IMG/VR virus record: IMGVR_UViG_3300021255_001258
Coordinates: 63,449 to 127,448 of that record
DNA from: a virus
Taxonomy: Duplodnaviria; Caudoviricetes
Direction: 5' to 3' (one strand)
Length of the DNA stretch: 64,000 nucleotides
Shown one piece after another: positions 1 through 30,531 of the stretch; the stretch's first letter is position 1; each line of letters opens with the position of its first letter. The notes beneath the pieces are model-generated. The model ran no database searches and had not been told where the DNA came from. It saw only the letters and a list, made by a program, of their open reading frames with translations. The position numbers and the translations under genes are program-made.

Positions 1-3000
1 CCTTGAGTTTGACTTGCGGTCTATTTTTCTAATTCCGCCTGTTGTTCTTTTGCTTTGCCAAGCGCTTGCGACAGATTCATTGCCTCTGTACTTGCATTTG
101 CTAATCCTTGCACATATTGTTGAGCAGAAGAGGAGAGACCTTTAAAATCGCTCGACTATATAAATGTATCAAGATCTACAGAACTTCCGCCAGCTTGTTT
201 AAATGCTTTTTCTAATTCTGGTATAAGATTCTGCTGTACGCCTGTGCCGATGCTCTTTGATGCGGATTGACCGAATTTCTGGAATATATTGGAGAATTTT
301 CCTGATTTTCTGTCGAAGCCTAAAAATCCTATATCTTTGAAATTTGACAATACTCCAAATACTGTTCCGACTATCATATTCAACCCACCAAAAGCGTCGG
401 CGAGTGATGTGATTACTTCAATAGCTTTTGTACCAAAATCGATAATACCCTTAATCCAAGAAGAATCAATTGTAGTACTTATAAGTTCCTGGAGTCTGTT
501 TTGGAATTGAGCCACTCGGCCCTCAATAGAATCGAGGTATTTATTTAGCTCCTCGTCGGCTGAACCGAGATAGTTATTCGCTGATGCTTCGCGTACTTGT
601 TCCAATATGTCGCCATTCTAGAGAATACTGGCGACGATGTTAGATCTGTTTTTCCCAGCAAGCTATTCAACAAGAGCCTATGCTCTATTCGTTCCGCGCT
701 ATTTATCTTCAGCCTAAATCTCACTATAAATCTTTGAAATGTCTAACAAAATATCATAAGTGTCCCGCAAATTCCCGTTTGGGTCAAGAACACTAACACC
801 TTTATACATATTGCTTGCAACTGCTGTATAATCACGAATGATTTGATCAGTTTTGGATCTGGTACGTACAACGAAATCGTCAACATCTTCACCCATATCA
901 GCAATTTCGTTCTTGGCCTCTTCAGTGCCTGAAATACGAAGAGCAATTGTACGGATACCAGCAGACGCTTTGCTCATATCTTGTCCAATAAGATTACCAG
1001 CTGTCAGAAGAGCAAGAGTCTGATCTAAATCATTTCCCTAAGTTTTTAATACAGCTCCTGCATTTTGTAATCCTTGTGCCAGTTCATCTGTGGATACGGC
1101 AAAATTATTGCCAATAAGATTTAACTTATCAACAATGTCTGAAGCAGTAACATCGGTGTAGGCCTAAGTAGCAGATACTAATGCATCTGTAGCATCTTTT
1201 ATGTCAGTAAATTCTGAAACATTCAAAAGTTTTGTTGATATTTCGGCCATATTCGCAGCTTCTGGTAAGTTCTTGCCAAGTCTTAACCAATCCGCCGTAG
1301 AACTCTGAATTTGAGAAGCAGTAGTACCAACACGGTCAGCAATATCAAATGATTCAAGCTGATATTGTTGTAATGTCTATAAGCTCTCATTTGATACTTT
1401 TCGCATTTCGGTAAGCTGAGTATCAAGTTCAGTTACAACAGATATTGCTTCACGGCCATAACGTATAAAGTCCTGGAAACTCAGATAATACGTTGCAAGA
1501 CTCGTCATTGTGTTCTTGAACTGGTCTTTGAAACGATCACCGAGAGATTTACCAAGTAAATTCTTGGAAGCCGCATCAGATTGAATTCCACTAAATATAT
1601 TTTCAAGTCTAGAGGCTTCAGCCTCATTGTCAACTGCTGCGATTTGTCCTTTTAACGTTTCTAATTGTTCGCCGAATTCTTTTGCGGCGATTTTATTCTG
1701 ATTTGCCCATGTTTCAATTTTAGCAGTAAATGAGGATTGCCACGTTTCTCGGATCGGTAAGAAATCTTCACTCTTCATTGTAGCCTTCATTCTGCCAATA
1801 AGAGCATCGAAAGCCTTTTGGTTTTCTTTATAATCCCGTGTCCCGATATTTTCTTTAAAAACAGTTGCTTCTTGTCTAAGTTCATCAATGATATCTTTCC
1901 AATTACCTTTTCGCCAAGAAGACTATTTTTCCATGGTTTCCAGTTGGTTATTTAAACCCTTTGTCCATTTATCAGAAAATTCTTGCGACACATCTGCTTG
2001 GAGTTGAGCAACTGTCTTTAAACCACCCGTCATCTTTTCAATAAATTCCGCACCTTGAGCAATCTTTGCATTCCATTCTGTTTGTTGATCGGTCATATAA
2101 CGAGCTAAATCAGCCATTCTTGCTTCATCTTGTGTACTGATTCCGCCACTGTTTTGCATACGATATAGCTTTTTATATTCTTCGCTTTCTTTTCTGTATA
2201 TTTCAATTTGTGTTTGTGTATCAGATTTTAATGTCCTTAATGTCGCATTCTTCTAAGCAGTAGCTAGAGCATCTATACTTTCAGCCGTACCTTTTGATGA
2301 AACAGCAAGTTTATCTATGGCGTCCACATATTGTTCAACACTGATTGCTCCCTGTTTATACATATCATTTATTTTAATGATTGCATCATTTGCAGCTTTG
2401 GCAGCACTTGCAGATTTTACAGAAGCTTCTGCCAACTATGTGTCAACGGTCTTTCCGTTTACTTGTTTCGTTTCAATTTTATTTAACTCTGTTTTGGCTT
2501 TAGTTGCCGCTTCAATTGTTGCTAAAAGTTCTTTATATTCAGCAGTAGCATCCTTTGTCGGATTTGCGGTTGTTTTGCCAGTTGTTCCGGATCCAGCTGC
2601 TTTTCCGGCGGTTGCGATCTTCTTCTCACTGGCCTCAAGAATTTTCGCTAAAGATTTGAGTTCTTCACTTTTTTTAAGCAGTTCATTTAGAGAGTCGAAA
2701 GCAGAAGAGTTGATGCCCTCATTCGAAAGTTTCTTGAAAGATTCTCCGATTGTATCAATTGCCCAACTTGCGTCTGTGAGATTTTGTACAGTATCTTTAT
2801 TGACCTTGACATTATTGATAGACTCAAAGAGATCTTTCAGACCACTAAGAACATTGGTGTCATCGCCACCCTTGAAAAGGTTCTATAAAACTTTTGCGAG
2901 TTCTTCAACTTTACCGATTTCAAGATCAATAAGATCGCTTACCTCAGCTTGTTCTCCACGAAATGCCTGAGTTTTTACATCTACGGCTTCTGGGATTTCA

Positions 3001-6000
3001 CCAACGAGTTTTGCTCTTAATTCGTCAAGCGCATCCTGTTCAGCCGACATTGCTTCGCCAACTGCTTTGGACTCTTGTTGAAACGAATCACTGATAGCAG
3101 TAGAAGAGGGACTTTCTCCGGTAGCTTCCTTTTTTGCGTCGGCAAGTTTTTCTGCATTCTTTGCGGCGTCAGCGTATGCTTCACTTTGTTTTTCTATTTC
3201 GGTAAAATCGCTTAATGCAGACTTGCCTTGTAATGACGCGTCTTCAATATTAATTTTTACAGTTCTTTCTTTAGTTAAATCTTCAAGCTAGTCTTCTGCT
3301 TTTGATGTATCAATTTTAACTTCAATTGGTTTCTCTAGTTGTTGTGGGTAAATAGAAGATAGCCATTCGTCTTGATCCATTACTTTAAATATTTCTGACG
3401 GATCTAGGCCATAAGACTTAATAGCATTTTTTAAAGCAGACTGTTTTACTTGCATGTTTTCATTTTCCGTCAAAGATTTAAAACGCTTAAATTCCTTGCC
3501 AATTAAATCATCAACGTCATATAATACATCATCACCAATTTTTTCTGCATCTAATGAAGATACATTTAAACCCTTAATTCGTTTCTGGATTAATTGTTTA
3601 ACCGCATCATCTAATTCCTCTGTTACAACTTCTCCTCCATATGTCTCATTTGAAGATATCCTTTTTTGGATATTCGAAGTTATAGTATTCATTATGTCTT
3701 TTAATAAATCCTAAGAAAGACTATTATCCACTATTGACCCAGAAAATGAATTGGTTATTGTTTCCTATATTTTTCCCCGAATAATATCTGCATAATTCTA
3801 TGGTAATAAATCCTATAATTTTACATTTTGCGCTTTCTATTGTAACTTTTCTGTAGATTCTTTATTCCAATTTTGCGAAAATTTTTCTTGCAAATCACTT
3901 GCTTTTACACCGGACGAAACAAGTTTTTCTATATCCAACATTGCAATTTCTCTGCCAGCTTTTACAAACTATTTTGTGATACCTTTTTTGTATTCCGTTT
4001 CAAGCATATTCTTAAATTCGTCACCAGAAAATGCTGCATAATTTACATTGGGATGCGTATGAAGAACGCTATTAGCTTTACCACCAAGATAATCAACTAA
4101 TTTTCCAGTATGAACACCTCGGCCCAATTCTTGATTAACATAAGATGCAATCCCCGTTATATCATTAAAAGCAATGCCTTCTTCTGATTCTTGTTTTCCA
4201 TATAAAGAATCAATTTCCTTCATTCCTTTTAACAGATCCAATGATTTCGCAACGGGACCATTCACTGAAATATTTATCTCTTTTGAATCTGGAAGTTCTT
4301 TAAGGGCATCATTAATCTTATTAATGGCCTCTAATGCCTAATTTGGGTCAATATCTATAGTTGGAGAACTAACAGTTTCACCGCTTACTCCATTAGTCTA
4401 GCTAGAAGATTGAAGTTTCGACAATTCTTGTTTCAATTTATCTATTTTCTAAATTTGCGCATCGATCATATCATCAGATATTAAATTATCCAATGCAGCG
4501 TTAGCGTTTGGCAGATAGTCTGCCTAAGCAGTTTCAATCTATTTCAATGCCTTTACTAATTCATCACTATTTATCGGGGAACCTGCAAAATGTTTTTTAT
4601 AAGTCGCATATAAATCCATAATCCTTTTTTGCTTTTTATCAATTTCTTCTGGATCAGATAATTTTCCAAGTTGTTCGATTTCGTACTTCAAATAATCTTT
4701 TCTAAACGTCGGAGCATTAATAGTAGAAGTGCGTTCACCTTTTTTACTGTTTAATCTATCTAATTCTTCTTCGGCTTCTCGGATTTCTCCTTTTAATTTT
4801 TCTATTGCTTCTGTAGCATTTCCAACTCCGTTAGCAACGCTTTGACCAGAAGATTGTCCGGCTTCTCCCATTTCTTCTAATGATTCGGCAGCATCTCTTG
4901 CATCTGACCCAGTTTGTACAATAGAATTATTTTTACGACGAGACGGTATTTTCTCATTGTCTTCTTCAGCTCGCTTTTGCGTGTTTTCGACATCTCTTTC
5001 AACTTTTTTTTGTTGTTTTCCAGCCGTTTTTGACAACCATTCATTAAGTTCTCTTTTTGCAGCATCAACATTCTGCTTTTGTTTTTTCGTCGCTCTTTCG
5101 GCATATGCTATCTAAGCTTGGTTTAAATCAGAAACTATTTCATTCCGATCATAATTACTTAACAACAACCCCTGAGTGTCTTTGGCAATCTTGAACTGTT
5201 TTATCATCTAATCTTGTAATGAAGATAAACGAGTAAATACATCGAATATTTGTTTCGATTGTTGCAAGAACCCTTCGGGATTAGTTTCTGAAAATTCTTT
5301 CTTTTTGGCAATCAATTCATCTAATAAAGCAGCCGTTCTTGAATAATCGTGAATTAGTAATTCTCCATTATCTGATTTTGTTGTATTTAATCCTTTAGTA
5401 ATTCCTAATTGTTTAGCTAGTTCCAATCCTTTGCCTTTTGTGAACTCTCCACGACTATTCTTTTTTTGAATCTCTTCATTGATCTTATCTCGGCTAAGAT
5501 AAAACTTATCTTGATGTTTTTTAGCTTCGTCAACTGCTTTTGCATAATCTTGTTGTAATGACACTTGTTCTCTCAATTTCTTTATCACATCATCTATTTG
5601 CTTATCAGTCATATATTGGAGAGAAGTCCTATTAGTTAATGAAGCTAATAATTCTATCTCATCTTTGGTGTGAGAGATAATGTCATATAAATCCTAAGCA
5701 CTTTTCGTCGAATCTAAAAAACCATCTGTAATTCTACTAAAAAATGGAGTAAGATTTACATTCTACAAAGTTTTCGATGCAATTTTCTTAATCCCATCAA
5801 ATGCGCTTTTTAACCCTAACTAATCATCGTCTAATTTTAAATTTTTCTTTATATCTCCCTATAGCCCACTTAATAATTGTTGAAAACTTTTCTAGTCCCC
5901 TTCAAATCTAATAGTTGCACTTGGGTCGGCATTTTGAATCTTTTTTAATACATCTTGCAGTGATTTCTAATCACCTGTGAATTTAATTAATAATTCATTA

Positions 6001-6098
6001 TCAGCCATCATTGACTAAACATTTGCCATTTCTTTTGTGACTTCTTTTGCAATCGCAGAAGCATCCGCCCCCACGGTAAATATATAATCATAAGCCAT
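1..6098 (-). CDS. Tape measure protein, >2030 aa, runs off the window; many in-frame TAG read as Gln
   Basis: Nine ORF-track fragments end at 156, 714, 1377, 1923, 2253, 3288, 3969, 4539 and 5208; all end in TAG and share one frame. The first 162 codons from ATG 6098 contain 7 TAG and no TAA/TGA. TMP-like motifs ELDTQLTEMRKVS, GIRTIALRISG, LAGKNRSN. Not every intervening codon was checked. Confidence 0.9.
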
Positions 6099-10788: not shown

Positions 10789-11814
10789 TTAAATAAACGC
10801 CTCGTCCGATTCATCGTCTTCCGAATTGGTGATAATATAATGACCCTCTGTAGTTTCAACACTTTCATGACCCAGTAATTTCTGTGCTACCTTCGAAGAC
10901 TTGTGATCATATAACACAAGGTTTGTTGCAATTGATTCCCTGAACAAATGAGGATGAACACGTCTTCCTACCAGTTTCGTAAGTAAACCAGAACACCAAT
11001 CATTAAATGTACCATCTGATACCTGACGAACAGTTCCGTCCTTTTCTTTTATTACAAACACATATGGACAGTCGTCTTCGCCGCGAACCTCCAGCCACTT
11101 CTTTATTGCTTTCATAACGTCTTCGCTGAACTTTAATTTCCGTGGTTTCCCAAGAACACTTGGACCTTTACAGCGAATAGTATGAGTTAAATAATATCTA
11201 GATATAACATTTTGTTCTTGTCCATCTTCGTCGATTATTTTCATTTCTTTCTCGATTACAGGATAATCAACTACTTCTTTAAGTAATTGCCGACTCTCTG
11301 CCCTACGACATCCCGTTCTATAACTAAACATAACCCAACAAAGTTTTTGCCATTCTCCGAGTTCCTTTAAATCATTACAAAGCTTCTCGTATTCTTCTGG
11401 AGTCAACGGCTGTTTTTCGTGGACATAACCAGTTTTAACAACTTTCATACTGGATGTTACAAAACTTCTAAAGGTAGGATATTCGTCCTCGTAATATTCA
11501 ACAATGAAATTACAAAATGAACTAATCACAGACTTTTTTATTTTAATCGCAGAATCAGATAAACCGCGATTTGTAAGCCAGTTAAGATAACGAACAAATT
11601 CTTTTTTCTTGATTTCAACACAATCTTTATCATTTAAATTTTCATATACCCACCAGAAGAAAATACGTAAACTGCTTCTATATTGTATCTTCGATTGCTC
11701 ACTTAATTCAATTTTATAATCAAGAAATTCCTATACCATATCCCGATTAAACTTATTGACTTTCTCCCACATCTCGTCAGTTATATCATCAGATCTTTTA
11801 GCTATTTGTCCCAA
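10789..11814 (-). CDS. Tyrosine recombinase (XerC/D-like, SPbeta YomM position; 1 TAG near N-terminus)
   Basis: TGCRRAE, HPHLFR and LLGH..VETT..HY catalytic motifs; extends to TTG 11814 through one TAG. Confidence 0.9.
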
Positions 11815-12070
11815 TTTTATCACCTTCTTTCTGCTGTCCGCGCCTTGTCCAAAAATCATATGCTTCGTATGTCTCATCTCGTTTAAACACGAACAATACT
11901 ACTTTTTTACCAGGATTTTTGCGATCATCCGAAATAACAACATCAACTGGAACAATACCAAATTCATTTATATAGCAATCTACTTGCTGCAGGTTAAGTA
12001 TTCGTACATAATCTTTGCTGAAATAATCATATTTTTTGCCAGAAATTCCGCGTTTAATATATTCTTCCAT
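11798..12070 (-). CDS. Hypothetical phage protein
   Basis: 90-aa ORF in the operon; VFVFKRDETYEAYDFW motif. Confidence 0.6.
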   Translation of the reverse strand: MEEYIKRGISGKKYDYFSKDYVRILNLQQVDCYINEFGIVPVDVVISDDRKNPGKKVVLFVFKRDETYEAYDFWTRRGQQKEGDKIGTNS

Positions 12071-13301: not shown

Positions 13302-14452
13302 TCAAGCGGCAACGCCGGAGACAACGAGGTCCTCTTCTGGATAATAGATGTAATAAAGTGCCTGCGCACCAGAACAATAATCAACGTTCAGGTTTCCAGA
13401 AAAGTCTACTTCCTGCGTCTCTGCATCGAGAGAGATTGTCATGGAAGGATCGGCTGCAAATCTCGGAATTACTACATAGCAAGGTCTCAGAGCATCCTGG
13501 CAAGGATCGCCCATAGCGCAGAACAGTGTAAGTTTCACCTGAGTAGGCAGATCTTTCGTATTGTTCTGCAACATTGCACCAGCGGTAACACTTCTTTCAA
13601 ATTTTACAAGATACTGAATCGGACCATTTTCAGTCCTAGCCGGAAGAGTAATCTTGGTAGCAGCACCAGTACCAGAAATCAGAGCAGCGGCAGCTTCGGG
13701 AGTCATCGGAGTGTCATTAGCACCATTGCCATACAGACCGATTACACGCAGAGAAGCAGCGGTATACTCGCCGATTGTGATTTCAGCACCAGGCTCGTTA
13801 ACAATAATCTTCGGCATTACAATTGCATTCTGAGCAGAAGCATAAGTAATATCACTACCAGAAGATGCATTCAGGGCAGCCGGATGCAGAAGAGCATTGG
13901 TTGCTGTAAAAGTCTTTTATACCCTCGCTTTCGCGATATTTCATAAGGGAATAGATCATATCATTATCCTTTTAGGATAGGTGGCACTTCGATTTAAGGG
14001 GTTTTCACCCACTAAGAATTTCACTTAGCCCTACTTCTAATGAGGAATTTCACCTCCAATGGAATGATCGTTTAACCTTTCTTTTTGCAAGACTTGGCAC
14101 AGGATTGCCATATCACCAACCATAATGACTTAGGTTTCCCCTGTTAGCCGATTCATTAATTATCATTTCCTATAATTACTAAACGTTGAATCGACACCCT
14201 AGATGTCTAGGTTCACCACCTTATTCGAAAAGCATTACTACTTTAAGCGGCGAGAACAAAATGTTCACCGGTTTTAGTTCTGTATGTAGTTCTTATTACA
14301 TTACCTTTCTTATCAGTAATATCAGTGGAATCAGCACTGATTTCGATGGAAGCGGAAGACAGCTGATCAAGAGCGTAAATGATATTGCCGTCTTTTTCAC
14401 CAACTCCATACAGGATTTCGTCAATATAATGATTTCCTAACGTGAAGGCCAT
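13302..14452 (-). CDS. Major tail tube protein, split by a group I intron (exons 14452-14267 and 13913-13302; 265 aa)
   Basis: Splicing joins ...RTKTG|TFTATNALL... in frame; the position after the connector genes fits a tail tube. Confidence 0.8.
13914..14266 (-). ncRNA. Group I self-splicing intron, 353 nt, no ORF
   Basis: Exon ends in U and intron ends in G; P1 CGGU/GCCG has U.G at the splice site; P7 GAUCA/UGAUC in AACGAUCA...GAUAUGAUCUA; removal restores the frame. Confidence 0.88.
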
Positions 14453-15957: not shown

Positions 15958-17410
15958 TTACAATGCAGATATTTCTACCTCTAACGAGGCTTCAGAATCT
16001 GCGGCAATATTTTTAACCAATAGTATTTTGCCTATGTATGAATCGTCACCGAGAAATTTAAAGCGCAACTTTGAATGATCCTCAAGATCGTAATATGTAA
16101 CAATAGCATTTGATACCAATTTCCCGTCTATGCGGATTTCCCAAAGTCCAGGCTCGTGGTTTAGTAACTCCGTACCTTCCTCATCATAATAAGTGACAGT
16201 AAATGTTTTGGCCGAGCCACCAATTTTAATAACAGGTTTGCCGGAACAGGTAATAACAGATTTTACAGAATCAGGAGTGGAGGTGTCATCAGAAATAGCA
16301 GAAGATGGAGCAATTTCATTATCATTCCAATCTGCCCACCATGCAGTAACATTTCCGTCCTCGTCATAATCTGCCTTGAGCGTATGTTGATTTGCAAGTT
16401 CTTGAGTACACGTAAAAACAGCAATGCCTTTAGAGTTTGACCGATTTATTTTACTAATCTGCCAAACCCTCGGTTCCGTTTTTACTGCTGCATCAATAAC
16501 AAGGTATGTATTATAATATAAGTGTTCAGTGTCCCGATTCAATGGGAGCGCAAATTTGGTCTAATCTTCTGGCTGCTAGAAGCGGAAATCGACCCAGAGT
16601 CCGCTCAATTTGTTATCATAAGGTTTTTTATCCTTATTTCTTACTGTCACCAGTAAGTTCAGCATATGTCTTCTTCATATCTTTACTGACTTAGAAGTCG
16701 GACACTCGTGGAAGTATTATATTTATTCAACCTCTATGCGTTACAATACTTTATAGCCTTTCGCAATCTATAAAGTTATCTCGGCGTTGTCTACTTGAGA
16801 GTTTCACCGATTTTGCCCGATTTTCACTTATAAGTTTCCCTATAAGGCAACAATTTTTATTGTACGAATTCTGGCTTCTGCTAACTCCAGGAAATTCATA
16901 ATACTTCCCGTTCTTAATCCATCTGAATACCTCGTCACACCGAAGTACCTCATAAGTAGGGAACTGATTTTCATCCCTGTCGGCAGTAGCAACCACTAAC
17001 CATCTGCGATATATTCCATCTTCTCCTTGAATCCAGACATAAAGTCCGACCGGATATCTTGCATTATACCGCTTCTTAAACACTTCATTATAATAATCAA
17101 CAGCACACTCATGACCTGGACGAAATTGAATATGCATAGTGACTTCGTCCTTTTCATAGGTCTTCTTTGTGTGTGCAATAAACTTAATATCAATTGGAAC
17201 TGGATTTGGATCTAATTCTGGATCAAATCCCTCTAGACTCAATCGATTTTCCGGCGTAGTATGATAGTAATCAAAGAAGTAACCGACCTGATACTAAATA
17301 TCCTGCGTAAAGGTCGCATCCATAATCATATCACTCTACATTTTTCGCGCCCGCCCAGGAATGCTAGTCCCATTATGCATAGCCTAAAAATCATTGAAAG
17401 TAATTGCCAT
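15958..17410 (-). CDS. Putative head closure/head-tail connector with Ig-like C-terminus; split by a group I intron; 5 TAG
   Basis: Exons 17410-16859 and 16605-15958 join as ...RSQNSYN|SGLWVDFRF-Q-QPED-Q-TKF in frame. Confidence 0.75.
16606..16858 (-). ncRNA. Group I self-splicing intron, 253 nt, no ORF
   Basis: Exon ends in U, terminal G; P1 CAAU|AA/UUGUUG has U.G; P7 GCAUA/UAUGC; removal restores the frame. Confidence 0.88.
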
Positions 17411-18835: not shown

Positions 18836-20228
18836 TCAAGCGGGCAATGTCCACTGACCAAAGTAACGGCCAAGCATGGTTGCAATACCATAAGAACGCT
18901 GTACTTCATACTTCATGATATCGTCCCATCTACCATGCTCTTCACCCTTCTCTGTAATTTCGTCAATCTCCGTCTCGCCCACATCAATCATCTTAATAAA
19001 TTTATCAGTCTGGCTAGCCGGAAGAATCCAAAGTTTTGTATTATCTACAAGTGGCGTCAGATTTGTCTTGCTTGTAAATCTCTGCGGAAGCTCCATAAGA
19101 ACTGTCCCCTCATAATCGCCCATACGGCCACTATGAGAAACATCTTCTTTCAGAGACTGCGCTCTCCAGTTGACATCAGAAAGAGCATTCAGTTTCTTCA
19201 GAGCAGTCTTAGTACCAAGAATTACAACAGAAGATTCGTTTGCTGTTTCAACATTAGCAATAATAGCGTCGAAGTTGTCCTTGGTTGTAGAACTAAGAGC
19301 ACCAGAACCAACAAATCCAGCGCTAATAGCAGCCGGGATTGCAGTCGCAGCAGACAGGAGCTGTGCGTAAATTTCCTGCTGAATCTGAACAGTAAACGCT
19401 TTTGCAATTGCATTACAAAGAGTGGACCAGTCCTCTCTTCCGATCATATAGAGATTAATGTCTGCACCAACAGCAGCCCCATATCTCTGATAAGGAATGG
19501 TGATTGCCTGTCCCTTACCCAATCTCTGAAGCAGCCGATCATGATGTGAAACGCCAACTTTAGAAATAGAAAGGATTACATCGTCTTCGCTATAAAACTC
19601 ATAAGCATCGCCAAGGGCAATATTTCTATAATCCACGAAATTGTTGAAAAATTCGTTATCTTTAAAGCCATTAGAAATAACAACATCTCATGTAATCTAT
19701 GTTTTCACATAGCACTGACTATATCTTAACGGATTGTTTATCCGCAAAACCCATTTCAAACTGCGTATCAATAGCAGTCTTACTCCTCCGATACGAGGAT
19801 AGTCGATACAGGTTATAACCACACTTGGGTTATCTTCCCACGGGATTACCATGTCATAAATGATTTAGGCTTCCCCGTTAGCATATGTGCTATTTTTTCT
19901 ATGTACACATACCCCGTTGATGAAACGGTAAAGGTTTAACAGGCAGATATTAAACTACCACTTCTTCTATGATATCAAAGAATTCGCGTCCATGTTCTCT
20001 ATATGCTCTCTTCAGTTCACGATTTGAAGAATTCTCATTTACTCCAAAAATCTTCTAACAAATTGTACGAAGTTTTGTCTCAGCTTCTGCTCTAGCAACT
20101 ACACGTTCTCCATCAAAAATCTCATTACCCATAGCAAGATCAAACATAAGATTCTTTACTTCGTCATAATTTGTGTCCATTTCAGAAAAAACATTCATAA
20201 CATTAGCTGAAAAATTATATTTTCTCAT
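18836..20228 (-). CDS. Major capsid protein, split by a group I intron (exons 20228-19957 and 19688-18836; 374 aa; 1 TAG)
   Basis: Splice gives FFDIIEEVV|DVVISNGFKDNEFF in frame; follows protease/scaffold and decoration genes; size fits an HK97-fold capsid. Confidence 0.85.
19689..19956 (-). ncRNA. Group I self-splicing intron, 268 nt, no ORF
   Basis: Canonical R/S elements UCGACUA and AAGAUAUAGUC; P1 GGU|AG/CUGCC has U.G; P10 AUCU/AGAU; terminal G. Confidence 0.92.
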
Positions 20229-20743: not shown

Positions 20744-20858
20744 AATTTCATATCTCCTTTCTACAATTTAAGTTTATTGCTAACTAACTTTTTTAAATAA
20801 TCCTCACAATAAATACTTGTGGATTTCCATCCTTATCAAAACCAGCTTTCTCCAAAAT

Positions 20859-20882
20859 AAAAAAGAGCCGCCGAAGCGACTC
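20859..20882 (-). terminator. Intrinsic terminator with cUUCGg loop
   Basis: GAGTCGC-TTCG-GCGGCTC followed by a T run. Confidence 0.65.
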
Positions 20883-20960
20883 AAAACTGGATAGCAGGAC
20901 TGGGGGAACTTCCCCATAATGTCCTTTATCAATCCACAGATTGACCACAATATTAAGTTA

Positions 20961-22646
20961 TTATTTCTTGAACAGATTCCCGTATCTGCCAGGTTTCTTA
21001 TTGAGATTCTGACCAAACTGTTTCATACCAACGGTCTTTTTCTTCTCATTCTTCTCGGCAAACTCAATTTTATTTCCCTTAGCATACGCAAGCAGGAGTT
21101 CGTCTGCCTTTGCACGAACATCCTCAACAGCCATGTCGAAGTGGTTCTCTTCCTTCTTCAGTTCTACAAACTCAGCCGTCTCGGCAATATTTGCATAATC
21201 ATCCGAATTAAGAATCTCCATCTTATCCGGCTCGGACTCATATTTAGCGAGCTTTTCAACAGTAGAAGAGTAGTTGGCTCTCATATCATCAAGTTTCTTG
21301 ATCTCATCCTCTGTCAGATATTGTGCGAACACCGCAACGCGATCACCAACAAGTGAGTAGACATCTTTCTTGACCTTATAAGACTGCTTAAATGCTTTAT
21401 CATTCCACCAGTCTTTCATAACAACATACTTATCATCATCATAAACGGTTACATCATACCAGGCATTATCTGTCTCAGAATATGTATCATTTACGAGAGT
21501 GGAAAGCGCATAAATCTTATCTTGCAGACTGACGGAAAATTCTTTGGTTACTTCGCCGTAGGTAACAGAATGAGTAACTTTTCTCGGAAGTGTATCATCA
21601 TCAATAACAACTTCTTCCTCTTCAGGCTCTTCTGGATCGGTTTCTTCAGGATTGGTTTCCTCTGGATCGTCATCCGCAAAATTCTCATCCTGCGGCTCCT
21701 CTTCCGGCTTTACTTCATCTTCAGAGGTAGAAGGATCTTCCTCTTCGAATGCTTTTGCAAAAGCCTCCTCAAGTTCTTCATCTGTCAAGCCTTCATACTC
21801 GAAATCAATATCCTCTACGGTTTTACCGTACTTTTCCAGTAATTCGTTAAACTTCACTTGATCTTTTCCTCCTTCCTCTAAATTTTGCGCGGAGTTATCC
21901 GCTTTATTACTAATGCGTTTTACAATAGCATCGGCAATCGAATCAATAATTTGAGCGTTAAATGTGAGAGAGTTATTGGCAATGCTGAAATCTTCAATCT
22001 GGACATGGGCATTTTCCATGCCCTCCTATACATCTTGCCCGGTCTCGGGATCCTTGCCGAGCAAAGTTAGACCCATAACATCAACATCCTCAAGCATGAG
22101 GACTTTATCTTTTGCCGAATATGAAAGTTCGTTAACTCCCAATTCAACCGAACATTTTGTTCCATTTTTCCGCTCAATAATCTCAGCGGCATCCGTATAT
22201 TCACGCGGAATTGCCACCTTCGCAAATATATTCATACGATCTTCGTGGTCTGGGTCTTGCTCCATATATGCCTTATCCGCAGTGAAACATCCGACCTGTT
22301 TCTCGTAATAAACATATTCGCCATTTTCGTCTATGTCAAAATCGTGACTCGTAAAATCCCTTACTCCATCAATTTCGCAAAAATTCGCAAGGACTGGTTT
22401 ATATGCGAGATTCTTGATTGCCTTCTTGGCAGCATCCTCTGTCAAAGAGCTTTTGTTTCTGTTGACTCCCGTATGCATAACCAAAACGTTCCCAAAGAAT
22501 AGATTATTATCTATTTCTTCATCAATGCTGAATCTTACCGGAATCTGTACACAAATCTGATATCCAGAATCCTTTGCACTAAACTTTGCAAAATTATTTT
22601 GTTCACAGAATTTTACGAGGTCATCCAATGTCAATAGTTTGTGCAT
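20961..22646 (-). CDS. Prohead protease-scaffold fusion (561 aa; 1 TAG at 22026)
   Basis: GQDV-Q-EGMENA joins two ORFs in frame; HTGVNRN, FTSH and CSVEL protease-like motifs; acidic scaffold-like C-terminus. Confidence 0.8.
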
Positions 22647-22883: not shown

Positions 22884-24425
22884 TTATTGATTCCTGGATC
22901 TTTCACCAGAATCCGAAATTGGCTCAGTATCATCCAAACTGGGTCTTCCAACGTCATTCGAATCTCCACTAGAAGTAAATGAAGATGAAAGTGGGAAAAC
23001 CATTTTATCCTGCAATTTTAATACATCTGTTTCAAACCATAGATTCGCTAGAGATTCTTTTTCACTCACTCCAAGAAGTGTATTATATGCAATTCTATTG
23101 GCAAATGAATACTGACAACTCTCAAGCATCGATTTTCTAAATTCTTCTTTTGTGTAGATACTTATCTCAAAATGATCCACTTTACAAGGATTAGACAGTT
23201 CATAGCTCAACATACGATTAACCCATCCGTTAATCTATGGCATAAGAGTAGAAATGGCAAATTCTGTCTCTTCTTTTAGCCAAGCATTTAAAGCTGCAGT
23301 GGAATCAATTTGCGAAGAATTAAGAATGGCACCACCACCACCAGTAGACAAAATTTGATTGGAAGCCTTTTCAACTCTATTAACATCATTATCTACAGAA
23401 CTAGAAAAATCTATAACCTTTAATTCATCCCCAGGGATAACAGCTCCGGCAACATATGGTGGCAATCCGGTTTCTAATAATCGGTTAAAATAATCCAGAG
23501 TTATATCAGGAGTTACCTCAAAGTCATCGGCTTCATCGGTTCCAGACAAGACCTTCATTGGTAAATAAACTAGCTTATATATGCTGAGTTCGTCGGCAAC
23601 AGCCTGTTGGTCTTTGTTGTCTTCAAGAGCCGTAAGCTGCAAGAATAAACTTGAAAACGGTGGAACAACCGTATCCCATAAATCAGATCTGAATTTTAGA
23701 ACAACTGCATATTCATCTGGACAATGTACATATTTAACTCCAGTTCGTTCATATTCTGCATACATTTCTTTAAGCGGAGAGCCAAGAAACTCTATAATGG
23801 CCTGTCTTTGCGCATTTCTCCACTTTGACATATCTATAGCCATCGAAAAATCTTTTGTCATATAACGTCCATCAATAATACAATCGTCAGGATCTAGCCG
23901 GAATAAAAACATACCAGTATCATCCATAAATTTAAGCCCATAATAAACATCTTCAACGTATGTATTGATTAATGCTTCAGTAAAAGCGTCATGAATACCC
24001 ATGCGTTCAAGGACTTCAATTGTATCATTCATAGACTTTAATGCTTTTGTCGCATCTCCACCTTTTACTAAATCGTATGTCGGTGTCACTTTACGACATC
24101 GCAAATCCCACATATTTGCATAAAAATTAACAATCCGAAAATATATATTAGACCTATAATATAAATATCTGGAAACTGCCCTGAAATTACTTTCATTAGC
24201 TGCAATATTAGCATAATATGTAGATAACGTTTCTTTGTTAATTGTTGTTATTGTCCTTGCTGTCTAAGACCTAGATGTATCGCGCAATTGTCGCAACGCA
24301 TCTTTCGCATTGGCATACCGCTCAATATTATTTTTATTTTTAGAATACCATTCACGAATCTCTTCGATAGAAGGGTTATCCTTTTCAGATAGTGTCACTG
24401 TTGACACCTGTTTTTTAGTCGCCAA
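22884..24425 (-). CDS. Portal protein (513 aa; 2 TAG)
   Basis: TTG start after AGGAGGTG; read-through LMP-Q-INGWVNR joins the ORFs; lies between terminase and protease. Confidence 0.8.
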
Positions 24426-24439: not shown

Positions 24440-26359
24440 TTATAGTGAACTAAACCGCCTACCAGGTCTAATGGTGAGGCGATTAATAAAATCTTTATTA
24501 TCTGGTTTTTTGCGCTGACGAATCTAATCTTCTTGCCTCATTATTGCAAGACAATGAGCAAGCAAACACAATGTATAAGATCTATCATCGCCAATTAAAT
24601 TCTAAAAACCCGGAGCTAAATCATAGCGAATATTATTATTGGAAGACTTGTATCTATACATATGAGTGACTTCTTCTTTCATAGCATCAATCTGTTTTAA
24701 TGCCTGCTCTTCATCAGCAGTTAATTTATATATTTCTTCATTTTCCTCATCTCCGTCTTGCACAAGAAATGAGAGATTCCCATGATAATCATAATCGGCA
24801 GTAAATGATATTAAATCCTGTTCAATTAACTCAATTAATTCTGTATACATCTACACTTTATATTTAGAAGGTTCAATCATTCGCACTACATCTATATTGT
24901 CTGGATATCTTTTAATATAAGGTTGACAAAAATCATAAGTCTTATCCATCAGACCTCTATGTTTATAATCAGGATCATTTTTATGATGTTTCTCATACCA
25001 CTCATCAAATAAATATCCCAATACTTGGGTTGCACCACCGCCGCTTCCTGCATCCATCATAAGGTATTTAATATTCTTGTAATCAGGAACGCCTATACCA
25101 TTATAATTGATCAATTCTTCACGAACTCTATCAACTTGCTATGGTGTTGTCAACGGTTTTCGCGTTTCTTTATCAATTAAATTAATGCAATTAACAATCT
25201 CCATATGCCAACCACGCTTATCATTATGCAATAGTTTCCCAACACTCAAGATGCTATTATCCTTTTTCGCTGCCAAGTCCCATGCAAGAACATACAAACT
25301 CTTATTGTCTGCATTTACAAGTTCCGGCGGACGAACAACACTATTCCTAAGAATTTGAGACTTCTTAACAATTATTTGGTCTCCGCCATCAATATCAAAT
25401 TTATTTCTATATTCTCGATTCGCCTTTATAGGATTGATCTTCATTTCAGAATCTATTTTTTCCTATGTTAAAAGCGGAACGGGATAAACTTTGCCATTAT
25501 AGGTCGCATTCATTACCAGGTCACAATCTATATCAAAACAAGCATATCTTTTATCTCCGGCCATACTGTGTAGAGCATACTCTTTATACATCCTATAAAA
25601 ATAATCATCCACAGATCCGGCAGAAGATGCAAATATAACTTGATTGGGAAAATTCGGCGGCAATAATGAAACGTCAATATTACCACCAAGAGCAAAGTCA
25701 GAGTTCTGACTAACGAACGGAAGAGTAGCAGTATACATATCTTCCAGAACATATGACGCTTCGTCATAGAAATTCAAACGAGAACGCTTACCACGCGACG
25801 CATCAAAATTACTGTTTACTGTAGCAATCGTAGAACCAGAATACAATTTATAACTCCACGAGTTTGGGTTGTGAGAAAACCCATTCGAATTTGCCTGACT
25901 TTTGACAAGTTCGTTCATGAATACGTCTGTAAGACCAGTAAAACTCGCAATTTCTTTCTTGGTGATAGCCTCAATCTTTTTCATCATGCCAATACTTTGT
26001 GCTCCAGTACCAGACAGGATATATCCCTCGAAATACGGAAGAAGAAGAGTTTTTGCCATTAAAAATGGACTACCTAATGTAGTTTTGCCACTGTTTCGGC
26101 TCATGCACCAAACCACATATGGAGTAATCCAACTTTCCATAAATACATATTTCTAATAATCCAAAAACTCTATCCCCATAAAACGTTCGCAAAATTTAAC
26201 CGGATTTCTACGTCCCCACTAAATTATTTCTGCGGTTTTCTTTAAACCTTCAAGCCGAAGATTAGACATATCATAGTAAGTAGGTTTTACAAAATATGTA
26301 TAATTCTTCGGATTAAATTCCTCAATTTCTTTACCAAGTAAAGTAATATTTTCACTCAT
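24440..26359 (-). CDS. terL: Terminase large subunit (639 aa; 7 TAG)
   Basis: Walker A (SRNSGKTT), Walker B (FYDEA), ASSA coupling motif, nuclease motifs LAWDLA, MDAGSGGG and DDRSY; all fragments in one frame, separated only by TAG. Confidence 0.92.
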
Positions 26360-27548
26360 CTATAACATTTAATGCTTCGTCGATAATATTTCTCTCTATA
26401 AGAAAATCTTTTAAATCTTTGTTTTCTTTACGGAGTAACCTACAATATTCAACAGCATTATCCCTTTCTTTTTGCAATGTATGAAGAAGCTGTGCCTGAT
26501 GTTGAACCTCTCGTTCCCAGTCATTTTCATCAGGATTAAGCTGCTTCATCTGATTCTGAAAATTAGCCTCCATTATATTGGAAATGGCAGCATTAGTCTC
26601 GTAGTCAAACGTATTTATCTCAATGTCATCTAAATTCATTTCTGACATTTCCTTAATGATACCACTAAGAGTTCCAGCTCCTTTACTTTTACTATTGTTA
26701 TGGTTAACGGATATACCGTTATCTTTCGCAAGAGCAAGAGCAGAATTTATCATCTTTTGCTTTGTGTCAGCTAATGACTTTATTGTAGAGATTACAGCCG
26801 GATTTTCGCCAAGCTGTTTTTTATATTTAGAAATTGCGTCATTGATTGTTTTAATGTCCTTAAAACTTTGCACAATCTCAATTACTGCTTCTAACTTTAA
26901 TCCATCGTCTCGTACAGAATCATCAAAATAACTAACAAGTTTTGCATAAAGAATCGGCTGTTCTTCAATCGGCTCATTCTCAAACGGGTCATAACCAAGG
27001 AAGCGGAGAGTAGTCTTCTTATTTATTTCATAAGTACTTCTCACATCTTCCGCCAAATCATCGGCAGTCTTTGGCTCTTTAATAATATACTGACCACCAC
27101 CCGCCACATTCTTCTTAAACATATCTGAATCAAAAAAGTCCATTCCGACCCAGTTGACCATTTGTATATTTTTTATGTAGGCGGCCCATGGATTATGTTT
27201 GACTTTCCCAGCTACAAGATTATCTGATTCTTGCACACTTGCATCCCAAACAGTATTAATAAACGGTTTATTCAGTAGCTTAAGAGCTTCAATACAAGAC
27301 TCTTTTGTTACTTCATGTTCAATACCGTCCTCATCAACTTGAAGCGCAATTTTTCGCGCACATTCTTTACACACACAACCAACCTCACATTTACAATGTG
27401 GATCAGTATTGACATAGAATTTGCTTTTATCTTTAAGGACACCGCAAACAATACAGCGCACCCCATTTTCAAGCAACTTCTTCATTTTTTCGTTTTCTTC
27501 CCGTACCTGTGCTATGGGGATTTTCTTCTCTTGTTTTACCACAGCCAT
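26352..27548 (-). CDS. Zn-finger-containing protein upstream of TerL (possible small terminase)
   Basis: CxxC...CKEC N-terminus; overlaps the TerL start. Confidence 0.6.
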   Translation of the reverse strand: MAVVKQEKKIPIAQVREENEKMKKLLENGVRCIVCGVLKDKSKFYVNTDPHCKCEVGCVCKECARKIALQVDEDGIEHEVTKESCIEALKLLNKPFINTVWDASVQESDNLVAGKVKHNPWAAYIKNIQMVNWVGMDFFDSDMFKKNVAGGGQYIIKEPKTADDLAEDVRSTYEINKKTTLRFLGYDPFENEPIEEQPILYAKLVSYFDDSVRDDGLKLEAVIEIVQSFKDIKTINDAISKYKKQLGENPAVISTIKSLADTKQKMINSALALAKDNGISVNHNNSKSKGAGTLSGIIKEMSEMNLDDIEINTFDYETNAAISNIMEANFQNQMKQLNPDENDWEREVQHQAQLLHTLQKERDNAVEYCRLLRKENKDLKDFLIERNIIDEALNVIDE

Positions 27549-27653: not shown

Positions 27654-27664
27654 GTAACCAAAAA

Positions 27665-27736: not shown

Positions 27737-28306
27737 ACAAAAAATAAAAAACCAATGCAGGCATCGGCTCCTCTAAAAACCTCAACGGTTTTTGTTCCGA
27801 ATTCTACCAACGGGAATCGAACCCGAAGCAGAAGAGCAGATACTCCTCTGCGCACCAACATAGACATTATTTAATAGCAATTACAATCCAAAGCATTAAA
27901 GACATAATGGCGGTACTTCCAAGAATCGCCACAACCTCCTATAATACTTCTACGGCGGTCTTTTTAATTTGATTCACATCCATCACCTCCAATATATATA
28001 AACAGCGTATAACCATAAACTTAGCTGTGCCGCGCTCTAGAAACGCAAGTTTTCATGGGTAACATAAATTTATCTACAAACATCATTAATGATGTCTGCT
28101 ATTTTACAAAGTTCTTCCCGGTCACGAGAATCATATCCGGTATCTTTAATTAAAGCATGAGCAAGATGAATGCAAAAATTTTGAAGAAATTCATCCTACT
28201 CATTTGTTGTCTCATCTGGAGACTTGCAAATTGTGTCATATACTTGATTATACTTATCAAGACATTCCCGTGTGTATTTGTATAAATCTTTCATAGTATA
28301 CTCCTT

Positions 28307-29167
28307 TTAATCCAGTATTAAATCATCTAATTCTAAATTGTCAGAATCTAGATCATTCATATAATCATAGACATCAAAATATTTATTTATACCAAGCTCT
28401 TGTCTTTTCCTGTTTACATACTCTTCAAGCTGTTCTGGCGTATTATCATACACTCCATATTCATAATGAAATGATCCGGGAATTGCCAAATTATGATGGT
28501 CTCTACATAAACAGATACCATTATAAATAGAGAATCTAGATTCTGGATGAGAAGAAAATGGGTAAATATGATGATATTCACTATTCTATGTAGAACCACA
28601 AACCACACACTCGCCGCCTGTTTTCTTGAGAACTTCTTTTTTCCAATCCCGGTATAAGCCAGTTTTGCGAAGTTCTCTAATGGCAGATCGATCACCATCT
28701 TCTGATGTACTTGTCTCCGTGGCATGTCTATTTTTCCCATAACAAGATGCTCTTAGGCCACTTTTAAGTTTTCCTGCTAAAACAGAAACTTCTCTACCAC
28801 ATGTACATTTACACATCCAATAAGTAATTTTCTTTTCTCTCGTTTTTTCTTCGTCAAAATATAAAGCAGTCAAATTCCCGAATTGTTGCCCAGTTAAATC
28901 TTCTCTCGTTTGGCCACCATGTCCTCCTGTACACTGCAAACATTGAAAAACGCGATCCGGTTTTTCAGTAAAACCCAAAAGTCTTCTACTTTCGCTTTCA
29001 TGGATACCATTTGGACATTTGAAATAATATTTAGTTTTGGTTCTAGCTGGCACTTCCGACGGCAGTTTATCATTCCTCTCATAGTCCCAAAGATCCAACA
29101 AATCCTGACGATTATTTTCAATACACCATTCTTCGAACGTCTATTTACATGTATACCTGTTACCCAT
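28307..29167 (-). CDS. Zn-ribbon plus HNH endonuclease (286 aa; 2 TAG)
   Basis: LWDY..N, YYFKCP and WMCKCTCG segments; HNH CVVCGST-Q-NSEYHH...NGICLCRDHH assembled across the TAG at 28586. Confidence 0.82.
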
Positions 29168-29202
29168 ATTTTTTACCTCCTATAGTAAATTCCTAGTTAT
29201 TA

Positions 29203-29269
29203 AATGCGAGAAGAGAAGTCTAGGAGCACTTCTCTCATGAGGTTAATTACTCCTCATGTTTCTCGCATT
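29203..29269 (-). promoter_or_regulatory. Three-way-junction RNA leader of the HNH gene with an anti-SD loop
   Basis: Stems AATGCGAGAA/TTCTCGCATT, CATGAGG/CCTCATG and GAGAAGT/ACTTCTC; loop GCTCCTAG is complementary to the TAGGAG RBS. Confidence 0.6.
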
Positions 29270-29272
29270 AAA

Positions 29273-29360
29273 CAAGCCCGGAGGGACTCGAACCCTCATT
29301 CGCGGCATCAGACGCTCTTACAGATTTAGAGTCTGCTGTTTTGCATTAAACTACGGGCCT
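29273..29360 (-). tRNA. Amber suppressor tRNA, anticodon CTA, long variable region
   Basis: Acceptor AGGCCCG/CGGGCTT plus G73; D stem GTTT/AAAC; anticodon arm GCAGA-CT-CTA-AA-TCTGT (anticodon 29327-29329); T arm GAGGG-TTCGAGT-CCCTC. Confidence 0.88.
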
Positions 29361-29390
29361 TTATAGCGCAGCTTCCACTACGCCAAAACA

Positions 29391-29870
29391 TTATTCCTTC
29401 TTATCAGTTGAGAAAATTACACCCTCGTCCTCACCAATAATCTCTTTAGCGATATCTGCCATCAGAGTAGAGGTAATGCCATGAGGATCCCCCATATTGT
29501 CGTTCCAGAACTGGATAACCTCCGGTTTAAACACAACATAACTAATCGGATTCGACATAATTCCTTCAATAGTCGTTGCATAAGAAAATGCCGGATTGCC
29601 CTCAAACGCTCTCTTAATATAATCAATTCTCTTCGGTTCATCATTCGCCGGAATTACTTCGATAAACACGGATACATTTCCAAAATCTTTCTGTACTGGC
29701 AGAAGCTCATCAAGAGCAGTAGCTTTTTCATGACTTTCAACATACAGCTTGATATGCATCTCGTCCTCATCAAACTCAACTTTAATATCAGGATCTGGAC
29801 TAAACATAGCTTCAAGTTTTCTATAGTACTCCACCCAAGGCGGAGACAGTTTTGTCTTTTTATCTTCCAT
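29391..29870 (-). CDS. Conserved phage hypothetical protein
   Basis: MEDKKTKLSPPW..., GAGG RBS. Confidence 0.7.
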   Translation of the reverse strand: MEDKKTKLSPPWVEYYRKLEAMFSPDPDIKVEFDEDEMHIKLYVESHEKATALDELLPVQKDFGNVSVFIEVIPANDEPKRIDYIKRAFEGNPAFSYATTIEGIMSNPISYVVFKPEVIQFWNDNMGDPHGITSTLMADIAKEIIGEDEGVIFSTDKKE

Positions 29871-29964
29871 AATATCTTCCCTCATATAAAATAGGAGAGG
29901 AGTGAATCGTAGCCACTCCTCCCCACTAAGCAATATGTACCGAGACGGTACTACGCTGGATACC

Positions 29965-30531
29965 TTAATTCATCCTATATTTAATGATTGCCTGTGCAGC
30001 TTCATCAGTAAGATGCGAAGATCCACGGTATGCAAATTGGCGCTTCGTGTCGCCAAGACATTCGCAGTAAAAGAATCCCCTATGATCAGGGTCCCACTCA
30101 AAGCAAGTCTGCGGATCCTCATCCATTCCGGGATCATCCTCCTCGATTTCTTCGTAATCAAATGTAAACAGACGGAATTCAGCCTCTACAAGATCGTGAT
30201 TTTTAACATCCACAATAAACTTCGAATTCACCGTATCCTGCACAAAAATTACTCCGTCAACGCCAATATAACATCCATGATTCTCGTTAAATGCCTTTTC
30301 AATATAAAGAGCTTTATCATCACTATCAATTGTAAGGATATATTCACGGTTATAAGTCATAGCATCAATATCTGCAAAAGCAATATCAAATTCCTCGACA
30401 TTCATAAAATACATGACGAGATCCTTAATAGTTTTATTGTCGCCAATAACAACTACCTAATCATTTTTATCTAGTACATCATATAGCTCGTCGAGCATCC
30501 CCAACGGCTCCTCATAAAATTCCATTTTCAT
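29965..30531 (-). CDS. Hypothetical acidic protein (1 TAG)
   Basis: Extends to ATG 30531 through one TAG; the most upstream clearly recoded gene seen on the minus arm. Confidence 0.65.

What the first reader, a model, noticed from the sequence alone, without database searches (positions are those of the whole stretch)
1..30531. TAG stop codon reassigned to Gln in the late genes
Seen: essential genes (TerL, portal, protease, capsid, connectors, TMP) are broken only by TAG and stay in frame to a TAA/TGA that abuts the next gene. Contexts favour Gln: II*WGRRNP, LDY*KY, LMP*INGW, DV*EGM, FYS*ANH, PQQ*YPQQ. Known: TAG=Gln (code 15) occurs in crAss-like, Lak and other gut phages. Inference: this SPbeta-like Bacillota phage is recoded, and standard annotation would call its structural module pseudogenised.
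Basis: partly seen in the sequence, partly recalled or inferred. Interest (0 to 1): 0.85.

Follow-up and report, generated by a model that had tools for sequence, protein, structure and literature searches.

The report
Phage late genes read TAG as glutamine
A large gut phage related to Bacillus phage SPbeta writes its particle and lysis genes with TAG meaning glutamine and carries its own TAG-reading tRNA; this is real, but it is a published kind of phage recoding found here in a lineage not yet deposited.

Summary
The window is the right half of a 127 kb IMG/VR phage contig. A block of about 64 kb on the minus strand (window 1-30531 plus 33 kb further left) holds 158 in-frame TAGs in 45 genes. 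All of these genes end in TAA or TGA. The flanking early genes have almost no TAG, either in frame or as a stop.

At TAG positions, standard-code relatives carry CAA or CAG. Against the closest such relative, Gln beats the next residue by 34 log-likelihood units. Four independent assemblies of close relatives show the same recoding.

A tRNA with anticodon CUA sits at the head of the block. Its core is most like a Lachnospiraceae tRNA-Gln(CUG), and it has an unusually long variable arm.

- 10789-11967 is a recombinase, not the capsid.
- The head protease has no TAG and lies outside the block.
- Three late genes are also split by small insertions; two match the group I intron model.

The pattern matches published work (Borges et al.; Peters et al.), so this is a new member of a known kind. 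The one mildly new item is that three different suppressor tRNA alleles occupy the same slot in near-identical phages.

The parts
1..30531 (-). The window's share of the recoded late block. It holds packaging, head and tail genes. The block continues to contig 30253, 33 kb left of the window.
   Evidence: 86 in-frame TAGs in 24 of 32 genes, with no in-frame TAA or TGA. Whole block: 158 TAGs in 19,191 codons.
29273..29360 (-). Suppressor tRNA with anticodon CUA. It is 88 nt long, has an A1-U72 pair, G73 and a variable region of about 20 nt, and its D-loop lacks the usual GG.
   Evidence: Found by ARAGORN. Rfam tRNA score 57.9 bits. The core is most like a Lachnospiraceae tRNA-Gln(CUG), 54 of 71 positions identical.
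29203..29269 (-). Conserved three-way-junction RNA fold starting 4 nt after the tRNA. Its function is unknown.
   Evidence: MFE -32.8 kcal/mol, z = -5.4. It is kept in relatives even where the tRNA allele differs, and 4 pairs co-vary among 4 sequences. No Rfam family matches at E up to 10.
24440..26368 (-). Large terminase, 642 aa, 8 in-frame TAGs.
   Evidence: phrog_2. Columns for TAGs 50, 72 and 302 are invariant Gln in homologs.
22884..24425 (-). Portal protein, 513 aa, 2 in-frame TAGs.
   Evidence: phrog_2739, E=2e-61. At codon 397 all eight aligned relatives have CAA or CAG.
18839..20228 (-). Major capsid gene (YonB family). It has 1 TAG in the first part and is split by a 268 nt insertion at 19688-19955.
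   Evidence: Ortholog residues 1-93 and 94-375 map either side of the gap with no residue lost. The ortholog model has an HK97 fold, with 175 PDB matches at E<=0.001.
16640..16869 (-). Group I intron-like insertion splitting a 396 aa structural protein gene.
   Evidence: Rfam Intron_gpI 47.9 bits, E=5e-10, just under the gathering score of 50. Split ortholog alignment.
13934..14205 (-). Group I intron-like insertion splitting the tail tube (YomU family) gene.
   Evidence: Rfam Intron_gpI 30.1 bits, E=1e-4. Split ortholog alignment.
3..6098 (-). First 2,032 codons of a 5,430 aa tape measure protein. There are 35 TAGs in the window and 64 in the whole gene.
   Evidence: phrog_4211, E=6e-56. Pfam PhageMin_Tail. 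Whole ORF at contig 53254-69546.
10789..11967 (-). Tyrosine recombinase inside the late block, with 2 in-frame TAGs.
   Evidence: Pfam Phage_integrase, E=1e-17. phrog_1.
28307..29167 (-). HNH endonuclease directly downstream of the suppressor tRNA, with 2 in-frame TAGs.
   Evidence: Pfam HNH_2 and phrog_374.
30550..45024 (-). TAG-free block on the same strand, upstream of the late block. It includes a YonJ-like protein, the ClpP-like head protease and IscB. It reads the same under either code.
   Evidence: 0 TAG against 130 CAA/CAG codons. Fisher p=1e-11 against the window's late genes.

Best explanation
This is an SPbeta-like siphophage, probably of a Lachnospiraceae host. TAG is a glutamine codon in its late module (packaging, head, tail, lysis) and is essentially unused in its early modules.

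A phage tRNA with anticodon CUA sits 1.2 kb into the late block and reads TAG. It is most likely charged by the host glutaminyl-tRNA synthetase. That enzyme relies heavily on the C34-U35 anticodon bases and G73, and as a class I enzyme it should leave the variable arm facing solvent.

Early genes translate normally in a standard-code cell. Late genes give full-length products only once the suppressor has accumulated. The code therefore adds a translational lock on particle and lysis genes.

Shown here: the recoding, its restriction to late genes, the Gln meaning of the TAG sites, the tRNA, and its recurrence in independent assemblies.
Inferred: charging by GlnRS, the host family, and the timing role.
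For: Recoding and its restriction to late genes:
- 158 in-frame TAGs in the late block against 3 in the left early block (Fisher p=7e-15).
- TAG makes up 19-21% of Gln codons in late genes.
- Under code 11, early ORFs end in TAG only 1 time in 49, 1 in 17 and 4 in 31 across the three early regions.
- The endolysin (contig 50353-51999) carries 4 in-frame TAGs.

Gln meaning:
- TerL TAG columns 50, 72 and 302 are Gln in 119-120 of 120 homologs.
- The relatives whose DNA was compared translate under table 11, so their Gln codons are real.
- Against the closest standard-code relative (73% identity, 2,909 aligned positions), 13 of 19 TAG sites are CAA or CAG. The log-likelihood is -26.5 for Gln and -60.4 for the runner-up Glu.
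- In recoded relatives TAG and CAA/CAG interchange. In L011, 18 of 33 TAGs sit at this phage's Gln codons and 5 are shared TAGs.
- Portal codon 397 is TAG only in this phage and CAA/CAG in all eight aligned relatives.

Not an assembly error:
- TerL orthologs at 99, 95 and 90% identity from two ENA and two SRA assemblies translate only with TAG read through.

tRNA and charging:
- The tRNA is a good match to the tRNA model.
- Its core is closest to a Lachnospiraceae tRNA-Gln(CUG).
- GlnRS is present above its cutoff in 57 of 61 Lachnospiraceae genomes sampled.

Published precedent:
- The same pattern and model are in Borges et al., bioRxiv 10.1101/2021.08.26.457843.
- Peptide-level proof exists for crAss-like phages (PMC9523058).
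Against: - No peptide or RNA data exist for this phage.
- The alignments show that TAG sites evolved as Gln codons. They do not show what this particular 88 nt tRNA inserts. Its long variable arm together with G73 is also the look of a tRNA-Ser.
- Two fairly conserved TerL columns (410 and 589) are Glu in homologs. With the most distant relative, Glu scores slightly above Gln.
- No release factor or synthetase gene was found, but the contig is only about 65% complete.
- The host is inferred only from relatives.
- The first TAG-containing gene (29965-30531) lies upstream of the tRNA.
- The timing role is a published hypothesis, not a demonstrated fact.
Confidence: 0.88

Rival explanations
1. 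TAG is read through, but this phage's own 88 nt tRNA inserts something other than Gln. Ser is the likeliest, given the long variable arm and G73. Tyr or Glu are also possible. On this view the Gln signal is history left over from the Gln-type suppressor alleles seen in sister phages.
For: The tRNA slot holds three different alleles in near-identical phages, so the present allele could be recent. Full-length similarity to host tRNA-Tyr and tRNA-Ser is nearly as high as to tRNA-Gln(CUG), with scores of 17.7 and 14.7 against 19.8. Glu is the runner-up residue.
Against: With the variable arm removed, tRNA-Gln(CUG) is the clear best match, at 27 against 20 for the next. TAGs specific to this phage sit at Gln codons of its nearest relatives, including an invariant portal Gln. 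Replacing invariant Gln residues of TerL at many sites would probably be harmful.
Confidence: 0.07
2. The recoding is real but has no timing function. After a suppressor was acquired, CAG-to-TAG changes drifted into genes that are translated when the suppressor is plentiful.
For: TAG and CAA/CAG interchange freely between close relatives. A relative with 90% TerL identity is still standard-code. Nothing here measures expression.
Against: The boundary is sharp. There is no TAG in 130 Gln codons of the upstream block on the same strand, against 21% in late genes. The endolysin is recoded. One integrase inside the block is TAG-free. Published lineages show the same bias independently.
Confidence: 0.3
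3. The TAGs are nonsense mutations in a decaying prophage, or they are assembly or sequencing errors.
For: Under code 11 the module looks pseudogenised.
Against: Only TAG interrupts the frames; TAA and TGA never do. The sites align to Gln. Four independent assemblies share them. A matching tRNA is present.
Confidence: 0.01
4. TAG encodes pyrrolysine, as ARAGORN's label 'tRNA-Pyl' suggests.
For: Only the CUA anticodon and the D-loop lacking GG.
Against: ARAGORN gave the same label to every CUA-anticodon tRNA it detected here. This tRNA has a standard T-arm and a long variable arm, unlike tRNA-Pyl (the tRNA-Pyl features are from established knowledge). Lys-like residues score far below Gln at TAG columns.
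Confidence: 0.005

Closest known systems
TAG-to-Gln (code 15) recoded gut phages, especially the Firmicutes-infecting 'Agate' clade of Borges et al. (bioRxiv 10.1101/2021.08.26.457843)
   Same: The genome is large and low in GC, with a predicted Firmicutes host. In-frame TAGs are concentrated in structural and lysis genes, and early genes are compatible with the standard code. A phage suppressor tRNA is present. Very close relatives use the standard code, and TAG is depleted as a stop (searches compared).
   Different: Membership of the Agate clade could not be tested, because its sequences were not to hand. No RF2 gene was seen in this partial contig. Here three suppressor alleles share one slot.
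phAss-1 / proposed Phassvirus group (PMC10607447)
   Same: A roughly 136 kb gut siphophage with TAG in 41 ORFs, suppressor tRNAs, a very long tape measure protein, and a host guessed to be among the Clostridia.
   Different: It is not the same lineage. A TerL search of 50,697 deposited phage records, limited to E<=1e-5, returned only Bacillus cereus phages at 25% identity.
Bacillus phage SPbeta
   Same: Orthologs of the late genes carry SPbeta-named families (YonG, YonD, YonB, YomW, YomU tube, YonJ) in the same order. The portal weakly matches SPbeta YonE.
   Different: As far as I know, SPbeta uses the standard code. Sequence similarity is very remote; no tblastn hit to SPbeta was found.
E. 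coli supE, a tRNA-Gln with CUA anticodon (established knowledge)
   Same: It is a Gln-type tRNA whose anticodon reads TAG, charged by GlnRS. The L018 allele shares its D-arm region with the host tRNA-Gln(CUG) and has the same anticodon loop apart from the third anticodon base.
   Different: The window's allele has A1-U72 rather than U1-A72 and an added variable stem-loop of about 20 nt. Charging was not tested.
Theta (HDV-like) ribozymes abutting phage suppressor tRNAs (PMC10879173)
   Same: A conserved, strongly folded RNA starts within a few bases of the 3' end of the suppressor tRNA.
   Different: No HDV-like model matches there at E up to 10. The fold is a three-way junction. The window's one HDV-like ribozyme lies elsewhere, at 47926-47997.

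Membership tests
Phage stop-codon recoding, TAG to Gln (code 15) | Conserved genes carry in-frame TAG only, and their frames close at TAA or TGA. | tested here: met
   86 TAGs and no TAA or TGA in frame in the window's late genes. 158 TAGs in the whole block.
Phage stop-codon recoding, TAG to Gln (code 15) | TAG columns align with Gln in standard-code homologs. | tested here: met
   Gln wins by 34 log units against the closest standard-code relative.
Phage stop-codon recoding, TAG to Gln (code 15) | A phage-encoded suppressor tRNA with anticodon CUA. | tested here: met
   Window 29273-29360.
Phage stop-codon recoding, TAG to Gln (code 15) | Recoded codons are concentrated in late and lysis genes, and early genes are code-neutral. 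| tested here: met
Phage stop-codon recoding, TAG to Gln (code 15) | The host uses the standard code. | tested here: inconclusive
   The host is inferred only from a related prophage in a Lachnospiraceae MAG. The glnS genes of that family read open under the standard code.
Phage stop-codon recoding, TAG to Gln (code 15) | Gln found at TAG sites in peptides. | not testable with these tools
   No proteomic data.
SPbeta-like phages | SPbeta virion protein families in a conserved order. | tested here: met
   Precomputed Pfam hits (YonG_N, YonD_N, YonB, YomW, YomU_Tube, YonJ_N) on orthologs 57-89% identical to the window's proteins.
Agate clade (Borges et al.) | TerL falls inside the clade on a phylogeny. 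| not tested
Pyrrolysine decoding | tRNA-Pyl architecture, and Lys-like residues at TAG columns. | tested here: not met
   Standard T-arm and long variable arm. Lys scores far below Gln.
Theta ribozyme-tRNA unit | An HDV-like ribozyme whose cleavage site lies within 5 nt of the tRNA 3' end. | tested here: not met
   No HDV-family match in 29050-29450 at E up to 10.
Group I introns (the three insertions in late genes) | A match to the Rfam group I model, and exact restoration of the reading frame on removal. | tested here: inconclusive
   The scores of 47.9 and 30.1 bits are below the gathering score of 50, and the capsid insertion has no hit. Ortholog alignments span all three gaps cleanly.

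The most novel reading that the evidence does not exclude
The suppressor locus may be an exchangeable cassette. Three tRNA(CUA) alleles, one unrelated to the other two, sit between near-identical flanks in phages with 95-99% identical TerL. Each is followed by the same conserved three-way-junction RNA, and each has a homing endonuclease gene beside it (HNH here, GIY-YIG in L010). The junction RNA could be a new 3'-end processing or regulatory element for suppressor tRNAs, playing the part that theta ribozymes play in other recoded phages. The long-armed Gln-type tRNA would then be a new suppressor design.
Probability: 0.15. Interest if true: 0.6.

Novelty: new member of a known kind. Interest (0 to 1): 0.35.

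Why it matters
For annotation: under code 11 about 64 kb of this phage, including terminase, portal, capsid, tape measure and endolysin, breaks into fragments and would be called pseudogenes. The contig needs code 15.

For biology: this is a clean example of a code switch between close relatives. One relative with 90% identical TerL uses the standard code and another is recoded. That makes the lineage useful for studying how recoding starts. The swapped suppressor alleles also suggest the tRNA is the mobile part of the system. None of this changes the current understanding of phage recoding.

Tried and rejected
- Descent of the 88 nt suppressor from the tRNA-Tyr(GTA) that standard-code relatives carry upstream of the YonG/TerL genes: no sequence similarity.
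- BLAST of the tRNA against 201 Lachnospiraceae genomes, and an exact-pattern scan of IMG/VR: nothing found.
- Release factor (PF00472) and Glu/Gln synthetase (PF00749) genes in the contig: none found, but the contig is incomplete.
- An HDV-like or other known ribozyme next to the tRNA: none.
I left it out.
- The PDB sequence search gave no useful name for the capsid protein. The fold search did.
Full report
**What the window is.** The window is bases 63449-127448 of a linear 127,448 bp IMG/VR virus contig that CheckV rates about 65% complete. GC content is 38.5%.

**The observation.**
- Under table 11 the minus strand of window 1-30531 is a run of short ORFs. With TAG read as sense they fuse into long genes that end in TAA or TGA and sit close together. 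One of them is a frame of 2,032 codons with 35 TAGs that runs off the left edge.
- On the whole contig, reading TAG as sense raises greedy coding density from 0.809 to 0.913 and lowers the gene count from 220 to 172. Reading TGA as sense gives only 0.837.
- In the window's 32 late genes there are 86 in-frame TAGs in 8,997 codons and no in-frame TAA or TGA. Those two codons are common in the other two frames. By chance, a 2,032-codon frame free of TAA and TGA has a probability near 1e-39.

**Extent and compartments.**
It runs from contig 30253 to 93979 on the minus strand, about 64 kb. It contains a 5,430 aa tape measure gene with 64 TAGs and an endolysin with 4 TAGs.
- In genes of 100 aa or more, the late block has 158 TAGs in 19,191 codons, which is 19% of all Gln codons. 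The left early block has 3 TAGs in 7,565 codons (Fisher p=7e-15).
- The 14 kb upstream of the late block on the same strand (window 30550-45024) has no TAG among 130 Gln codons.
- Early ORFs also almost never end in TAG: 1 of 49, 1 of 17 and 4 of 31 across the three early regions. The early genes therefore read the same under either code.

**Which amino acid.**
- TerL (8 TAGs) and the portal (2 TAGs) were identified with PHROGs.
- Among 120 TerL homologs, TAG columns 50, 72 and 302 are Gln in 119-120. Columns 410 and 589 are mostly Glu, and the other three columns are variable.
- Some database proteins had been called with TAG written as Q, so I checked DNA. Homologs P0004 (90% identical), P0044 and P0056 translate under table 11, so their Gln codons are genuine.
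- I mapped every TAG onto the orthologous codon in 12 related loci. The totals over the eight loci held at that stage were CAG 24, CAA 22, GAA 17 and GAG 7, with smaller counts for other codons.
- A likelihood test used each relative's own substitution profile. Gln came first in 10 of the 12. Against the closest standard-code relative (73% identity) the margin was 34 log units. Only the 5 kb locus L002 (2 TAG sites) and the most distant locus L004 (43% identity) did not favour Gln.
- In recoded relatives TAG and CAA/CAG interchange. Portal codon 397 is TAG only in this phage and CAA or CAG in all eight aligned relatives.

**Not an artefact.** TerL orthologs at 99, 95 and 90% identity, from two ENA assemblies and two SRA runs, translate only with TAG read through. 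The read-level check could not be run.

**The tRNA.**
- A tRNA with anticodon CUA lies at 29273-29360 on the late strand, 1.2 kb into the block. It has an A1-U72 pair, G73, a standard T-arm, a D-loop without GG, and a variable region of about 20 nt that forms a short hairpin. ARAGORN's 'Pyl' label only reflects the anticodon.
- I collected 72 distinct tRNAs from two Lachnospiraceae genomes. With the variable arm removed, the best match is tRNA-Gln(CUG), scoring 27 against 20 for the next. In the full-length alignment, 54 of 71 positions are identical, including an unbroken run through the anticodon arm.
The host tRNA-Trp fits poorly.
- GlnRS is present above its cutoff in 57 of 61 Lachnospiraceae genomes sampled.
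- From established knowledge, GlnRS depends strongly on U35 and G73 and tolerates a weak 1-72 pair. As a class I enzyme it leaves the variable arm facing solvent. Charging with Gln is therefore plausible, but it has not been tested.

**A swapped cassette.**
- The flanks of the tRNA are nearly identical in the window, L010, L012, L018, L019 and L020, but the tRNA between them differs:
  - the window has the 88 nt allele;
  - L018 and L020 have a 73 nt allele whose D-arm region matches the host tRNA-Gln(CUG) and whose anticodon loop matches it apart from the third anticodon base;
  - L010, L012 and L019 have a 72 nt allele that aligns with the 73 nt one at 46 of 71 positions and has an odd T-loop. 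It falls below Rfam's threshold.
- Directly 3' of every allele is a conserved three-way-junction fold (MFE -32.8 kcal/mol, z = -5.4). Four of its pairs co-vary among four sequences. It matches no Rfam family.
- A homing endonuclease gene follows the slot: HNH here and GIY-YIG in L010.

**Corrections to gene labels.**
- 10789-11967 is a tyrosine recombinase.
- The capsid is the YonB-family gene at 20228-18839. The model of its ortholog has an HK97 fold.
- The ClpP-like head protease at 32001-32615 has no TAG and lies outside the block.
- The capsid gene, a 396 aa protein gene and the tail tube gene are each split by a 240-320 nt insertion that the ortholog alignments span cleanly. Two of the insertions match the group I intron model below its threshold.

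**Relatives and host.**
- The relatives are large gut-metagenome phages whose late proteins carry SPbeta-named families.
- One standard-code relative is a prophage in a 378 kb Lachnospiraceae MAG contig.
- No deposited phage is close.

**Comparison with the literature.**
- Borges et al. describe TAG-to-Gln recoding in many gut phage clades, including the Firmicutes-infecting Agate phages of roughly 127-154 kb. They report standard-code relatives above 80-90% ANI, recoding biased to structural and lysis genes, prior depletion of TAG stops, TAG-free integrases, and reliance on host GlnRS.
- Peters et al. confirmed code 15 in crAss-like phages with peptides.
- Kienbeck et al. describe ribozymes next to suppressor tRNAs.
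- This phage fits that picture feature by feature, so it is a new member of a known kind.

**Verdict.** The timing role is inferred. Interest is modest at 0.35. The only mildly new points are the exchangeable suppressor slot and the long-armed Gln-type tRNA.

Noticed in passing
window 29150-29420; L010:4710-4960; L012:1170-1430; L018:450-760: Three different tRNA(CUA) alleles (88, 72 and 73 nt) occupy the same slot between near-identical flanks in phages whose TerL is 95-99% identical. This looks like cassette exchange of the suppressor.
   Followed up: partly
window 29203-29269 (-): A conserved three-way-junction RNA fold directly 3' of the suppressor tRNA (z = -5.4), with co-varying pairs. 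It matches no Rfam family and occurs once in the window.
   Followed up: partly
window 19688-19955, 16606-16869, 13911-14227 (-): The capsid gene, a 396 aa structural protein gene and the tail tube gene are each split by a 240-320 nt insertion. Two match the group I intron model just below its threshold. The capsid insertion resembles the tail tube one.
   Followed up: partly
window 38755-40272 (-): A 425 aa ORF with a HEARO RNA directly upstream of it (Rfam 127 bits). This is the known arrangement of IscB with its guide RNA, here inside the phage's TAG-free block.
   Followed up: no
window 47926-47997 (+): An HDV-like ribozyme (F. prausnitzii type, 53 bits) starts 11 nt after the stop of a 264 aa ORF. 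It is not next to any tRNA.
   Followed up: no
contig 53254-69546 (window 3-6098 plus 10 kb to the left): The tape measure gene is 5,430 codons long, more than twice the length I recall for SPbeta's (about 2,300 aa; not checked here). That implies an extremely long tail, or a protein with added functions.
   Followed up: no
window 10789-11967 and contig 35163-36176: Two tyrosine recombinases lie inside the late block. One has 2 in-frame TAGs and the other has none. The TAG-free one fits the published idea that integrases stay in the standard code.
   Followed up: no
L010:5875-7868; L011:3938-4526; L008:2414-2667 and 20746-21010: The relatives differ in their cargo near the same region. L010 has a ToxN toxin gene and an ISL3 transposase, L011 has a ROOL RNA (307 bits), and L008 has two group I introns.
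   Followed up: no
L003:6889-6962; L004:6909-6982: More distant standard-code relatives carry, upstream of the packaging genes, a tRNA-like gene to which ARAGORN could not assign a normal three-base anticodon.
   Followed up: no
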